Assembly: GCA_966211105.1 (NCBI GenBank)
Contig: CBIHMU010000014.1
Location: 18,032-82,031 of the forward strand
Length of the DNA stretch: 64,000 nt
From: an uncultured Burkholderiales bacterium
GTDB taxonomy: Bacteria; Pseudomonadota; Gammaproteobacteria; Burkholderiales; Burkholderiaceae_C
Direction of reading: 5' to 3'
Shown here in pieces: positions 4,831 through 14,283 of this stretch. The position numbers and the translations under genes are program-made. The notes below the pieces were generated by a model. The model was not told the DNA's origin. It worked only from the letters and a program-made list of their open reading frames with translations, and did not search any database. Positions within the stretch are counted from its first letter, which is position 1; each line of letters begins with the position of its first letter.

Positions 4831-7800
4831 TTAGATCAGCGGAGCAGCGCCGTTCTGGTCGTCTTCATGCAGCTTCTTGTAGGCCGCGCTCATGACGTCG
4901 TGGTTCACCGTGTCGGTGGCCGCGGCGGTGGTCGCCGCCGTGACCGCCGTCGCGGTGGACGCCGTGGCGCCTCCGAGCAGGTTGGCCTCCGGCTGGGCCA
5001 GCAGGTCGCCCAGGTGCGGGGTCGCCGCCGTCGCGTTGGTGGCCGTGTGCTGCGAGCCGTCCTTGGCGAACCACACGTCCGTCATCTCGTGCGAGGTGCC
5101 GTCCGACTTGGTGAAGCTGGACACCAGACCCAGCACGTTGCCGTGGTCGACGTCGGTGCCCTTGGTCGCGCCGAGGTTCAGGTCGGTGATGCCCAGGTCC
5201 GCCAGCGTCTTGAGCTCACCCGCGTCGGTCTTGCCGTCGTGGTTGGCGTCGACCCAGACCTGCAGCTTGCTGAAGTCCACGTCCTTCGCGTTGATGTGGC
5301 CGTCATGGTTCGTGTCCAGCGAGGCGAGGGCGGCGAAGCCGTCCAGGCCCTTGCGGCCGTTGACCGTGGTGCCGGCGCCGAAGAGCTCCGCACCGCTGTC
5401 GATCGAGCCGTTGCCGTTGCGATCCATCACCAGCAGGCCGTCGTTGCCGCCGACCCAGCCCCACTTGTCGTTGTGACCGGTGGCGTTCAGGTCGAAGTTC
5501 ACGCCTTGCGCCGCGGACACCGTCTGGATGCCGTTGCCGTCCAGGTCCAGCACGATCGGCGAGGCCAGGAACAGCGCGTTGGTCTGCTCACCGGTGAAGC
5601 CGGCCGTCTGGTCGGACGTCATCGCCAGCACCTGCTGCATGTTCATGCTGGCCAGGTCCTGCGTGTCCCAGCCGATGAACTGGTCGGACGTCATCGCCAC
5701 GATCTGGTCCGTCGACAGACCTTGCACCTGGATCGAGGTCAGGGCGTGGATGTCGCTGGAATCCAGCGCCAGGATCTGGTCCGTCGTGAAGGCGTGCATC
5801 TGCGTCGAGGTCAGCGTCGCGAAGTGCGTGCTGGTCATCGATGCGATGTCCTCGGTCGACAGGGCCGCGATCTGGTCCGTGCCCAGCGAGCGCAGTTGCG
5901 CCGTGCTGAATTCATGGACCTGGTCGCTGGTCAGCGCCGCGATCTGGTCGGTGTTGAACGCATGCAGGGCGGTCGTGCTCAGCGCATGGATGCCGTCGGT
6001 GGTGATCGACGCGATGTCGGCGGTCTCGATGCCGGCCACCTGCGTCGCACCCACGGCGCTCCACTGCTGCGAGGTCAGCGCGTGGATCTGATCCGAGGTG
6101 AAGGCCTCGAAGTCGGCGGAGCCGAAGGCCACCATGTTCGCGCTGCTGATCGCCGCGAGGTCGCCGGAGTCGATCGCCTGCACCTGGTCGGTCGTGAAGG
6201 CGTGCAACTGGGCCGAGCTCATCGACACGATCTGCTGCGAGGTCAGCGCCTGCACGTCGTCGGTGGCCATCTGGCTCACCTGCAGCGTGCTCAGCGCGCC
6301 GATCTGCTGTGTCGTCAGCGCGGCGATCTGGTTGCTGTCCAGGGCTTCCAGCTGCGCGCTGTCCAGCGAACGGATCGCCAGCGTGCTCAGGCTGCGCAGG
6401 TCACCCGTCTCGAAGGCCGCCATCTGGTCGGTCGTCAGGCCGTCCACCTGCGCCGAGGTCAGCGCCGCCGTCTGCGACGAGCTCAGCGCCACGATCGCAT
6501 CCGTGCTCAGGGCGCCGATCTGGGCCGAACCGAAGGCCTGCAGCTGCGTGGAGCTCAACGCGGCGACGTCGTCCGTCGTCATCGTCGAGATCTGCGCGGT
6601 CGTCAGGGCCTGCAGCTGGGTGTTGCTCAGCGAGCGGATCTGGCCGCTGGTCAGCGCGTTCAGGTCGTCGCTGGTCAGGTTGGCGATCTGGGCGGTCGTC
6701 AGCGAGGCGACCTGCAGCGTCGTCAGTGCGGCGATCTGGTTGCTGTCGAGCGCTTCGATCTGATCGGTGCCGAGGGCGCGCAGGGCGGTCGTCGACAGGG
6801 CGCGCAGATCCGCGGTCTCCATCGCGGCCATCTGGTCCGTCGTCAGGCCCTTGACCTGCGCCGAGGACAGCGCGGCCACCTGGCCGGAGGTCAGCGCGAT
6901 GACCGAATCGGTGCTCAGCGCGCCGATCTGGGCCGAGCTGAACGCCTGGACCTGCTGCGAGGACAGCGCGGCCACGTCGTTGCTCTCCATCGCGGAGACC
7001 TGCGCCGTGGTCAGCGCGGCGACCTGCTGCGTCGTCAGCGCCTTGACCTGCGCGCTGGTCAGCGCGTTCAGGTCGTCGGAGGTCAGGTTGCTCACCTGGC
7101 CGGTCGTCAGCGCGGCGACCTGCTGGGTCGTCAGCGCGGCGACCTGGTCGGAGCCGAGCGCCGCCAGCTGGTCACTGGTCAGGGCGCGCAGGGCCACGGT
7201 CGACAGGGCCTTCAGATCCCCCGTCTCGATGGCGCCCATCTGGTCCGTCGTCAGGCCGGCGACCTGCTTGCTGGTCAGCGCGGCGACCTGCACCGAGCTC
7301 AGCGCCACGACCGCGTCGGTCGTCAGGGCGCCGACCTGGTCGGAGCTCAGCGCCGCGACCTGATTGGTCGCCAGCGCGGCCACGTCCGCGGTCTCCATCG
7401 TCGACACCTGCGCCGTCGTCAGCGCGGCCACCTGGGCGGTGCTCAAAGCCTTGATCTGCGCGCTGGTCAGGGCGTTCAGGTCGTCGGAGCCCAGGTTGCT
7501 GATCTGGCCGGTCGTCAACGCGGCGACCTGCTGGGTCGTCAGCGCGGCGATCTGGTTGCTGTCGAGCGCTTCCAGTTCGGCCGAAGTCAGCGACGCCACC
7601 TGACCCGTGGTCAGGGCGCGCAGCTGGCCGGTCGTCAGCGCGGCGAAGTCGTCGGTGGCGAACTGGCTGATCTGGCCCGTCGTCAGCGAAGCCACCTGGG
7701 CAGTGGTGAGCGCTTCGACCTGGTCGGAGCTCAGCGCCTGCAGCTGGTCGCTGGTCAGGGCGCGCAGGGCGACCGTGGACAGCGACTTCAGGTCACCGCT

Positions 7801-14283: not shown

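What the first reader, a model, noticed from the sequence alone, without database searches (positions are those of the whole stretch)
4831..14283. 3150-aa octapeptide solenoid with three nested periodicities (8, 136 and 600 aa)
Seen: the unit L-x-x-x-Q-V-A-A; 17 units form a 408-nt super-repeat with fixed landmarks (SDDLNA, MESADV, AGLTTDQ, ETGDL); a 7-unit variant block recurs at 1800 nt. Inference: a long rigid rod (probably an alpha-solenoid) whose length changes by recombination, for example an adhesin stalk, sheath or biofilm matrix protein. The odd 17-unit register suggests a defined superhelical pitch. I do not recognise it as a characterised family.
Basis: partly seen in the sequence, partly recalled or inferred. 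Interest (0 to 1): 0.7.

Follow-up and report, generated by a model that had tools for sequence, protein, structure and literature searches.

The report
Giant fixed-length rod of mini-helices
This Roseateles gene encodes a 317-kDa, probably secreted protein made of 362 back-to-back eight-residue mini-helices; the repeat family is already listed in Pfam (ALTTAQ) but unstudied, it matches a "helical screw" fold solved in 2025 only for a designed protein, and the repeat count is identical in ten related species.

Summary
Window 4831-14283 (minus strand) encodes a 3150-aa protein with 362 octapeptide units (L-[TS]-[TS]-x-Q-[VIL]-x-A) and no register break. Periodicities of 8, 136 and 600 aa are all present.

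The repeat is not unrecognised. It is Pfam PF20080 "ALTTAQ repeat" (2621 bits), a catalogued family for which I found no literature. It also aligns at E=2e-17 with PDB 9ZEM (HeliScrew4), a designed "alpha-helical screw" that its authors call almost absent from nature. AlphaFold2 (pLDDT 95) predicts one 5-6-residue helix per unit.

The C-terminus is a FrpC-type self-processing module (E=1e-36 to 6SJW). It lacks the scissile Asp (Ser-Pro here) and Asp478, so clip-and-link is unlikely.

The new result concerns length. In ten Roseateles species (78-95% aa identity, dS up to 0.59) 2907 residues precede the junction Ser/Thr, with zero indels. The 1498-aa paralog downstream is frozen in the same way (1244 aa). 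The assembly is therefore sound, and "length changes by recombination" does not hold within this clade. Lengths do differ between genera.

Most likely this is a type I-secreted, calcium-folded extracellular rod. Glycosylation by the adjacent GT4/DUF5672 genes is possible but weakly supported. It is a new member of a known but uncharacterised kind.

The parts
4831..14283 (-). Complete CDS: 3150 aa plus stop, 317 kDa, pI 4.05, no Cys, 24% Ser+Thr
   Evidence: GC3 is 0.96. dN/dS against orthologs is 0.14-0.37.
14291..14294 (-). Shine-Dalgarno GGAG, 7 nt upstream of ATG 14283
   Evidence: Read directly from the sequence. This start Met is conserved in orthologs.
12727..14283 (-). N-terminal 7 residues plus 64 irregular octapeptide units, with no super-repeat. 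The first units, including a Trp-bearing unit (LTSEDWAA), are shared with the paralog.
6271..12726 (-). Super-repeat array: 15 x 17 units (136 aa, 408 nt) plus two 7-unit blocks, 269 units in all
   Evidence: AF2 models of 408 aa and 136 aa give pLDDT 95.2 and 91.2.
9295..9462 (-). First 7-unit block, equal to super-repeat units 1-3 and 14-17
   Evidence: It is at the same position in 10 orthologs.
7495..7662 (-). Second 7-unit block, 1800 nt from the first
5560..6270 (-). 29 degenerate C-terminal units, rich in aromatic residues and His, plus the half unit LFLAS that ends the rod
5056..5559 (-). FrpC-type self-processing-module-like Ca2+-binding domain (Pfam SPM, PF26745). It starts at Pro preceded by Ser, not Asp.
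   Evidence: 6SJW E=1.1e-36; PF26745 is named SPM
4834..5055 (-). 74-aa Ala/Thr-rich tail ending ...YKKLHEDDQNGAAPLI. This is the presumed type I secretion signal region.
   Evidence: The end motif is conserved in orthologs and in the paralog. The role as a signal is inferred.
215..4711 (-). Downstream paralog of 1498 aa: 155 units in register with no super-repeat, and the same SPM-like domain (Thr-Pro) and tail. No terminator was found in the 119-nt gap.

Best explanation
The gene encodes a giant extracellular rod protein of the ALTTAQ-repeat family (Pfam PF20080).

**Fold.** Each of the 362 octapeptides forms one capped mini-helix.
- Position 2 (Thr/Ser) is the N-cap.
- Position 3 (Ser/Thr) is N1.
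- Position 5 (Gln) is the N3 capping-box partner.
- Positions 1, 6 and 8 (Leu, Val/Ile, Ala) form the core.

The mini-helices wind around a common axis as an "alpha-helical screw", the fold solved for the designed protein HeliScrew4.

**Export.** The protein has no signal peptide and no Cys, and it is very acidic. It ends in a calcium-binding SPM-like domain and a conserved tail. It is most likely exported unfolded by one of the three type I secretion systems encoded elsewhere in the genome, and it then folds outside the cell, where calcium is available. The SPM-like domain lacks the scissile Asp and Asp478. It probably serves as a calcium-dependent folding cap and not as a clip-and-link device.

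**Partner and length.** The protein works together with a 155-unit paralog encoded directly downstream. Both rod lengths are held constant by selection in the Roseateles/Mitsuaria clade. This points to a structural spacer or fibre of defined length at the cell surface or in the matrix. I estimate roughly 85-145 nm and 35-60 nm, assuming 2.5-4 units per turn and a pitch of about 1 nm.

**Glycosylation.** Sugar addition to the exposed Ser/Thr by the co-oriented GT4 and DUF5672 genes is possible.

**Shown versus inferred.** Shown: sequence anatomy, family membership, predicted secondary structure, homology of the C-terminal domain, length conservation and purifying selection. Inferred: secretion route, absence of cleavage, glycosylation, rod dimensions and biological role.
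For: **Family.** PF20080 scores 2621 bits over 107 stretches. 2217 clusters at 50% identity match a 408-aa segment at E<=1e-3, and 207 match at E<=1e-30.

**Fold.**
- The repeat gives an ungapped 106-aa alignment to 9ZEM HeliScrew4 at E=2e-17.
- AF2 gives pLDDT 95.2 and pTM 0.82, with a 5-6-residue helix plus a 2-3-residue linker in every unit.
- The preprint describes the same N-cap and core logic for 8-mer screws.
- Invariance across 10 orthologs by unit position is 0.95 at position 5, 0.83 at position 1, 0.82 at position 3 and 0.73 at position 8. It is 0.28 at position 4 and 0.42 at position 2.

**Secretion.**
- pI is 4.05 and there are no Cys residues.
- The SPM domain matches 6SJW at E=1e-36.
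- That domain is otherwise found at the C-terminal part of giant RTX, cadherin and Ig proteins. Some of these combine ALTTAQ, RTX and SPM.
- Three HlyD-type T1SS membrane-fusion genes lie in the genome. Two sit in loci with an ABC transporter (C131, C118), and C118 also has a TolC-like gene.

**No cleavage.** Ser or Thr replaces Asp414, and Ala or Thr replaces Asp478. The mechanism needs the Asp414 carboxylate, and D478A strongly reduces processing (PMC7078468).

**Fixed length.**
- 2907 aa precede the junction in 10 of 10 species, with identical block order.
- There are zero indels at 78-95% identity, and the super-repeats are positional orthologs.
- dS reaches 0.59 and dN/dS is 0.14-0.37.
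- The paralog has 1244 aa before its junction in 9 of 10 species.

**GT genes.** GT4 and DUF5672 follow the pair in G000, G001, G013 and G020, and GT4 (but not DUF5672) was also found in G006.
Against: - No RTX nonapeptide repeats are present: there is no PF00353 hit.
- No T1SS genes lie next to the locus. The OGT-like/T1SS cluster is 85-830 kb away in the genomes where both lie on one contig.
- The secretion signal is not demonstrable from sequence.
- Foldseek did not return 9ZEM. The best PDB fold hits are weak: mesothelin at TMq 0.35-0.51 and 7QLR at TMq 0.30. Fold identity therefore rests on sequence similarity and on predicted secondary structure.
- The AF2 alignment consisted only of the protein's own repeats.
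- GT4/DUF5672 adjacency is not kept in Paucibacter, Inhella, Ideonella or Pelomonas, nor at two unrelated ALTTAQ loci.
- Length constancy might partly reflect a low recombination rate between diverged repeats. Open frames differ between genera, from 3145 to 5176 aa.
Confidence: 0.6

Rival explanations
1. This is a length-variable adhesin stalk. Unequal recombination between repeats changes the rod length between strains to tune surface reach or to evade recognition.
For: There are many repeated 31-mers inside the gene (314). One divergent species has lost exactly one 136-aa super-repeat. Relatives in other genera have open frames of 3145-5176 aa. ALTTAQ arrays also occur in FHA/TPS-type and autotransporter-type proteins.
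Against: Ten species have an identical length and block order, with zero indels at dS up to 0.59. Super-repeats are positional orthologs and are not homogenised. There is no ligand-binding head at either end, because repeats start at residue 8.
Confidence: 0.1
2. This is a clip-and-link fibre. The C-terminal module cleaves itself on calcium binding, as in FrpC and ApxIVA, and links the 2900-aa rod covalently to a surface protein or to other rods.
For: There is strong homology to the FrpC SPM (E=1e-36), with the EF-hand-like sites, the Trp451 equivalent and Asp579 conserved.
Against: The residue before Pro is Ser in the large protein and Thr in the small one and in most orthologs. The published chemistry needs the Asp carboxylate to form the anhydride, and Asp478 is also lost. 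Among 120 SPM-bearing giant proteins, Asp precedes the Pro in only 14 of 172 motif instances. Ser, Pro and Ala are the common residues, so non-Asp forms are the norm.
Confidence: 0.08
3. This is a mucin-like glycoprotein. The rod is mainly a scaffold for dense O-glycosylation of its roughly 750 Ser/Thr residues by the neighbouring GT4 and DUF5672 enzymes (or by the OGT-like enzyme of the C118 T1SS locus), and it forms a hydrated protective coat.
For: Ser+Thr make up 24% of residues, and Ser/Thr at unit position 3 is almost invariant. GT4 and DUF5672 follow the pair in four Roseateles species, and GT4 in a fifth. An OGT-like gene is fused into a T1SS operon elsewhere in the genome. Earlier notes of this scan report the same pairing in other phyla; these are unverified leads.
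Against: Adjacency is lost in four related genera and at two unrelated loci. Ser/Thr at these positions is already explained by helix capping. There is no direct evidence for glycans.
Confidence: 0.3
4. This is an assembly artefact, or a non-coding or disordered low-complexity region.
For: The source is a draft assembly of 197 contigs. A long ORF is open on both strands.
Against: The same gene, with the same length, is present in closed chromosomes of R. noduli, R. chitinivorans and Roseateles sp. MS654. No exact repeat reaches 75 nt. GC3 is 0.96 and dN/dS is 0.14-0.37. pLDDT is 95.
Confidence: 0.01

Closest known systems
Pfam PF20080 'ALTTAQ repeat' proteins
   Same: Same repeat (2621 bits, 107 stretches). 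Members are giant bacterial proteins in which the array is combined with secretion-linked modules such as RTX+SPM, TPS/FHA, ESPR and PATR.
   Different: The family has no experimental characterisation that I could find. This member consists only of the array plus an SPM-like end. It has a 17-unit super-repeat and a 600-aa higher-order repeat, and its unit count is fixed across ten species.
HeliScrew4, a designed 8-mer alpha-helical screw (PDB 9ZEM; bioRxiv 10.64898/2025.12.04.691947)
   Same: Same 8-residue register and motif logic (L-T/S-x-x-Q-I/V-A-A), with an ungapped alignment at E=2e-17. The predicted pattern of one short capped helix per unit matches the published description.
   Different: HeliScrew4 is a 120-aa designed protein with Pro at helix position N1. 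The natural units have Ser/Thr there (Pro occurs in some units of the paralog) and are 24 times more numerous. 3D superposition could not be done here. The authors state that only one natural example exists (7QLR) and do not mention this family.
FrpC / ApxIVA self-processing module (PDB 6SJW; Pfam SPM PF26745)
   Same: Homologous over the whole 168-aa module (E=1e-36), with the EF-hand-like calcium sites conserved.
   Different: The scissile Asp-Pro is Ser-Pro or Thr-Pro, and Asp478 is Ala or Thr. The module sits at the end of the protein with no RTX block after it. Cleavage is not expected.
Giant type I-secreted repeat adhesins (LapA, SiiE, MpIBP; from general knowledge and the RTX review PMC3034196)
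   Same: Very large, acidic and Cys-free, with no signal peptide and with calcium-dependent C-terminal parts. They form a rod-like extender outside the cell.
   Different: Their extender units are Ig-like beta-sandwich domains of about 100 aa. They carry RTX repeats, N-terminal retention modules and ligand-binding heads, and usually have an adjacent T1SS. None of these was found here.
Receptor-binding protein of C. difficile phage CDHS-1 (PDB 7QLR)
   Same: The preprint cites it as the only natural helical screw in the PDB. It is a weak Foldseek hit to the 408-aa model (probability 0.94, TMq 0.30).
   Different: There is no sequence similarity (it is absent). It has only a short screw segment inside a phage tail protein.

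Membership tests
Pfam PF20080 ALTTAQ repeat | HMM score above the gathering cut-off of 26.4 bits | tested here: met
   2621.4 bits with 107 stretches for the large protein; 706.8 bits with 42 stretches for the paralog.
Alpha-helical screw (HeliScrew, 9ZEM) | Tandem 8-residue units, each a short helix with an N-cap Ser/Thr and an apolar core | tested here: met
   362 units in register. DSSP on the AF2 models shows a 5-6-residue helix in every unit, at pLDDT 95 and 91. This is a prediction, not an experiment.
Alpha-helical screw (HeliScrew, 9ZEM) | Sequence similarity to the crystallised design | tested here: met
   E=2e-17, 106 residues aligned without gaps.
Alpha-helical screw (HeliScrew, 9ZEM) | 3D superposition and superhelical parameters (2.5-4 units per turn, right-handed) | tested here: inconclusive
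   Foldseek against the PDB did not return 9ZEM for either model. The best hits have TMq of 0.51 or less.
FrpC-type self-processing module | Homology of the ~170-aa module, including the EF-hand-like Ca2+ sites | tested here: met
   6SJW E=1.1e-36 over chain residues 1-172. The DxDGxG, DxNGNGxIDxGxE, DxNxDxxIxxxD and DxNxDGxxxxxE sites are aligned. PF26745 is listed for homologs.
FrpC-type self-processing module | Scissile Asp-Pro bond, whose Asp carboxylate forms the anhydride | tested here: not met
   Ser-Pro in this protein and Thr-Pro in the paralog and most orthologs. The mechanism is described in PMC7078468.
FrpC-type self-processing module | Asp478 and Asp579 of the transient fifth Ca2+ site | tested here: not met
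   The Asp478 equivalent is Ala here and Thr in the paralog. The Asp579 equivalent is kept.
RTX / type I secretion substrates | Gly/Asp-rich nonapeptide repeats (PF00353) | tested here: not met
   No PF00353 hit at E<=1.
RTX / type I secretion substrates | T1SS genes (ABC, MFP, OMP) present; usually adjacent | tested here: inconclusive
   Three HlyD-type MFP genes score over the cut-off, on contigs C131, C118 and C57. C131 and C118 have an adjacent ABC gene and C118 also a TolC-like gene; the C57 MFP lies at a contig end. None lies within the 18 kb downstream of the window or the 50 kb upstream inside it.
RTX / type I secretion substrates | C-terminal, uncleaved secretion signal; no N-terminal signal peptide | not testable with these tools
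   The N-terminus MASLITNLTTDQ has no hydrophobic core. The conserved acidic/hydrophobic end ...DDQNGAAPLI is shared with the paralog. Its function as a signal is an inference.
Leucine-rich repeat proteins | 20-29-aa unit with a beta-strand on the concave face | tested here: not met
   Only weak periodic hits were found (LRRTM design at 1e-8; PF23952 with 0 stretches). The AF2 models contain no strands.
LapA-type two-step T1SS adhesins | N-terminal retention module and ligand-binding domains | tested here: not met
   Repeats begin at residue 8. No Pfam domain other than the repeat and the EF-hand-like sites was found.

The most novel reading that the evidence does not exclude
The two rods are length-calibrated spacers. 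Selection holds them at exactly 362 and 155 mini-helices because their physical lengths set a defined architecture outside the cell, for example two tiers of a surface canopy or a fixed spacing in a matrix. That would make them extracellular molecular rulers built from a fold that protein designers have just described as 'dark matter' almost absent from nature. On this reading the ALTTAQ family would show that alpha-helical screws are common in bacteria, can exceed 100 nm, and were available in sequence databases to the predictors that 'discovered' the fold.
Probability: 0.2. Interest if true: 0.75.

Novelty: new member of a known kind. Interest (0 to 1): 0.5.

Why it matters
**Relevance to the fold question.** A Dec-2025 preprint presents the 8-mer alpha-helical screw as a new fold with a single natural example. 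It asks why nature does not use it. This gene, together with about 2000 sequence clusters like it, indicates that bacteria use it on a very large scale. They use it as a general extracellular extender, attached to several secretion pathways.

**Relevance to repeat evolution.** The Roseateles pair offers an unusual case: 8.7 kb of tandem repeats with no indel across species at dS of about 0.6. That is the opposite of the usual behaviour of repeat adhesins.

**Experimental tractability.** The system is testable in harmless freshwater and soil strains.

**Limits.** The family is already catalogued, other windows of this scan have met it, and the biological function remains inferred.

Tried and rejected
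- **Read mapping.** Closed genomes of relatives were used for the assembly check.
- **Structural neighbours.** Foldseek of both models against the PDB and of the 408-aa model against BFVD gave no convincing neighbour, and 9ZEM was not returned.
- **Rod geometry.** Model coordinates are not exposed, so units per turn, rise and the meaning of the 17-unit register could not be computed.
- **NCBIfam.** There was no significant hit for either giant.
- **Spurious Pfam hits.** Hits to CAAP1, Gp5_trimer_C, DUF7443, LRR_EndoS, Fibrinogen_BP and Phage_TAC_7 are periodic or compositional. Most have 0 stretches passing on their own, so I rejected them.
- **Upstream region.** Rfam found nothing in the 570-nt upstream region. 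The sigma-70 scan found no promoter there. The only two terminator-like hits lie about 440-600 nt upstream of the start codon, and none lies between the two giant genes.
- **Literature.** 'ALTTAQ' gave 0 papers. The 'PF20080' hits are unrelated catalogue numbers.
- **The 1085-aa ORF after the paralog.** It has no Pfam, NCBIfam or PDB hit. It is present only in G000 and G001, so it is not part of the conserved cluster.
- **DUF5672.** It has no PDB relative.
- **Dedicated T1SS or OGT next to the locus.** This was rejected: the OGT-like/T1SS cluster is unlinked.
- **GT4/DUF5672 linkage beyond the genus.** It was not found.
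Full report
**Gene and observation**

The repeat lies on the minus strand. An ORF runs from 14322 to 4831 (3163 aa). The likely start is ATG 14283, which has GGAG 7 nt upstream and is the Met conserved in orthologs.

- The minus frame has GC3 of 0.96.
- The equally long plus-strand ORF (4867-14298) has GC1 0.96 and GC3 0.64, so it is an antisense artefact of the repeat.
- TRF reports a 24-nt period with 282 copies, and 408-nt arrays.
- Residue autocorrelation is 0.39 at multiples of 8, against 0.07 off-register. It is 0.664 at lag 136 and 0.588 at lag 600.

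Laid out in eights, the protein has 362 units with no register break.

- 64 irregular units come first.
- An array of fifteen 17-unit super-repeats follows, with two 7-unit blocks 1800 nt apart.
- 29 degenerate units come last.
- Each 7-unit block equals units 1-3 plus 14-17 of a super-repeat.
- The 600-aa period is a duplicated block of 4x17+7 units.
- The unit consensus is L-[TS]-[TS]-x-Q-[VIL]-x-A.
- Units 1, 5 and 12 of each super-repeat carry Asp in place of Gln.

**Family**

The repeat is Pfam PF20080 "ALTTAQ repeat", at 2621 bits over 107 stretches. The 1498-aa protein encoded directly downstream (215-4711, minus strand) scores 707 bits. NCBIfam has nothing. I found no paper containing "ALTTAQ" or a relevant "PF20080".

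A 408-aa segment finds 2217 clusters at 50% identity with E<=1e-3 among 1.84 billion representatives. Of these, 928 reach 1e-10 and 207 reach 1e-30.

In relatives, the array is combined with several kinds of module:

- RTX and SPM modules;
- TPS/FHA and ESPR modules;
- PATR;
- Ig-like, FG-GAP and Calx domains;
- occasional enzyme or toxin domains.

The array is therefore a general extender of secreted proteins.

**Fold**

The repeat region aligns without gaps over 106 residues with PDB 9ZEM, HeliScrew4, at E=2e-17. This designed protein comes from a Dec-2025 preprint (10.64898/2025.12.04.691947).

- The preprint describes "alpha-helical screws" from 8-residue repeats.
- These have Ser/Thr N-caps, Pro at N1 and an apolar core.
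- The preprint reports 2.5-4 units per turn.
- It calls the fold "dark matter" with one natural PDB example (7QLR).
- It asks why nature rarely uses the fold.

AlphaFold2 was run on three super-repeats, with an alignment made of the protein's own repeats. It gives pLDDT 95.2 and pTM 0.82, with a 5-6-residue helix and a 2-3-residue linker in every unit. One super-repeat alone gives pLDDT 91.2.

Foldseek finds no convincing PDB neighbour. Mesothelin reaches TMq of at most 0.51, and 7QLR has TMq 0.30 with probability 0.94. Foldseek does not return 9ZEM. BFVD adds nothing. Coordinates are not exposed. Fold identity therefore rests on sequence similarity and predicted secondary structure, and the rod geometry is unmeasured.

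Across ten orthologs the fraction of invariant sites differs by unit position.

| Unit position | Invariant fraction |
|---|---|
| 5 | 0.95 |
| 1 | 0.83 |
| 3 | 0.82 |
| 8 | 0.73 |
| 2 | 0.42 |
| 4 | 0.28 |

This fits a capping-box-plus-core reading.

**C-terminus**

Residues after the rod match the FrpC self-processing module (6SJW, E=1.1e-36), and the EF-hand-like sites are conserved. Pfam names this module SPM, PF26745.

The published mechanism needs the carboxylate of the Asp that precedes the Pro. D478A strongly lowers processing (PMC7078468).

- Here the preceding residue is Ser. It is Thr in the paralog and in most orthologs.
- The Asp478 equivalent is Ala or Thr.
- Among 120 SPM-bearing giant proteins, only 14 of 172 motif instances have Asp before the Pro.

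I therefore read the module as a calcium-dependent folding cap and not as a clip-and-link device. A 74-aa Ala/Thr-rich tail ends in a motif shared with the paralog and with orthologs.

**Secretion**

The protein is 317 kDa with pI 4.05, no Cys and no signal peptide.

The genome has three HlyD-type T1SS membrane-fusion genes that score over the cut-off.

- One locus (contig C118) reads OGT-like/TPR gene, then ABC, MFP and a TolC-like gene.
- Another (C131) follows a 2119-aa protein.
- The third membrane-fusion gene (C57) lies at a contig end, and no ABC transporter was seen beside it.

None is near this locus. Where both lie on one contig, the C118-type cluster is 85-830 kb away. The protein has no RTX repeats. 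Type I secretion is the best-supported route, but it is an inference.

**Length conservation**

PF20080 giants occur in 23 of 24 other same-genus species genomes, and in none of 16 genomes from other families of the order, at the stringent threshold used. Record titles identify the clade as Roseateles/Mitsuaria: R. noduli, R. chitinivorans, R. terrae, R. depolymerans, M. chitosanitabida and others.

- In ten full-length orthologs, three of them in closed chromosomes, exactly 2907 residues precede the junction Ser/Thr. The two 7-unit blocks are at the same places.
- Ungapped identity is 78-95%, so there are no indels.
- Super-repeats match their positional counterparts better than other repeats: diagonal 0.81 against off-diagonal 0.71. 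The diagonal is the best match in 11-12 of 15 rows even for the most distant pairs.
- dS reaches 0.59 and dN/dS is 0.14-0.37.
- A species at 60% identity lacks exactly one 136-aa super-repeat.
- The paralog has 1244 residues before its junction in 9 of 10 species.
- Outside the clade, open frames range from 3145 to 5176 aa. The 408-nt spacing recurs in Paucibacter, Inhella and R. asaccharophilus.

These results validate the assembly; in addition, no exact repeat of 75 nt or more exists in the gene. They contradict the idea that length varies by recombination within this clade. They suggest selection on rod length.

**Neighbourhood**

No terminator was found between the two giants. Downstream of the paralog lie a 1085-aa orphan ORF, a GT4 glycosyltransferase and a DUF5672 protein.

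- The orphan ORF is present only in G000 and G001.
- GT4 and DUF5672 follow the pair in G000, G001, G013 and G020. In G006 only GT4 was found.
- They are not found in Paucibacter, Inhella, Ideonella or Pelomonas.
- Two unrelated ALTTAQ loci have no glycosyltransferase or T1SS nearby.

Glycosylation of the Ser/Thr-rich rod is therefore possible, but only weakly supported here.

**Earlier notes of this scan**

- One note on this genome had proposed the SPM with Ser/Thr-Pro. I tested it and agree on the homology, and I add that non-Asp forms are the majority.
- At least ten other genomes yielded ALTTAQ giants that earlier agents read in the same way. I treated these as leads. They lower the novelty within the scan but are not evidence.

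**Verdict**

The feature is real. It is a new member of a catalogued but experimentally unstudied family. The predicted fold matches a recently designed one. The specific new point is that the unit count is frozen across species.

Noticed in passing
G000 contig C118:5915-13334 (outside the window): A conserved operon-like cluster: a TPR/OGT-like (GT41-type) glycosyltransferase, an ABC transporter with an N-terminal peptidase-like domain, a HlyD-type MFP and a TolC-like protein. It is present throughout the genus but lies 85-830 kb from the ALTTAQ locus. It is a candidate exporter and modifier for the rods.
   Followed up: partly
L011:14856-18113 (-), i.e. just downstream of window position 215, outside the window: A 1085-aa Ala/Arg/Gly-rich orphan ORF between the paralog and GT4. 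It has no Pfam, NCBIfam or PDB hit. It is present only in G000 and G001 (55% identity) and absent in G013, G020 and G006, so it appears to be a lineage-specific insertion.
   Followed up: partly
window 4867-14298 (+): A 3143-aa ORF is open antisense to the gene. Its GC1 of 0.96 and GC3 of 0.64 show that it is a by-product of the repeat's codon pattern and not a gene.
   Followed up: yes
G000 contig C131:1437-11726 (outside the window): A 2119-aa protein followed by an ABC transporter and a HlyD-type MFP. This is a second T1SS with its own probable substrate.
   Followed up: no
Control genomes of the genome search: Caulobacter vibrioides has a PF20080 match over the cut-off, so a model organism carries an ALTTAQ-repeat protein that could be studied genetically.
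   Followed up: no
PDB 9ZEM versus window 6271-12726: The designed HeliScrew4 sequence (LTPEQIAA-type units) is very close to natural ALTTAQ units, and some units of the paralog read LTPEEIAA or LTPEQFHS. The design and prediction models may have learned this fold from natural sequences and not extrapolated it.
   Followed up: partly
Pelomonas sp. Root1217 / R. saccharophilus loci L056-L058, L061, L064: In these relatives the two SPM-ended genes are about 16 kb apart, and one open frame reaches 5176 aa. Rod lengths therefore differ between genera while the tandem-pair arrangement persists.
   Followed up: partly
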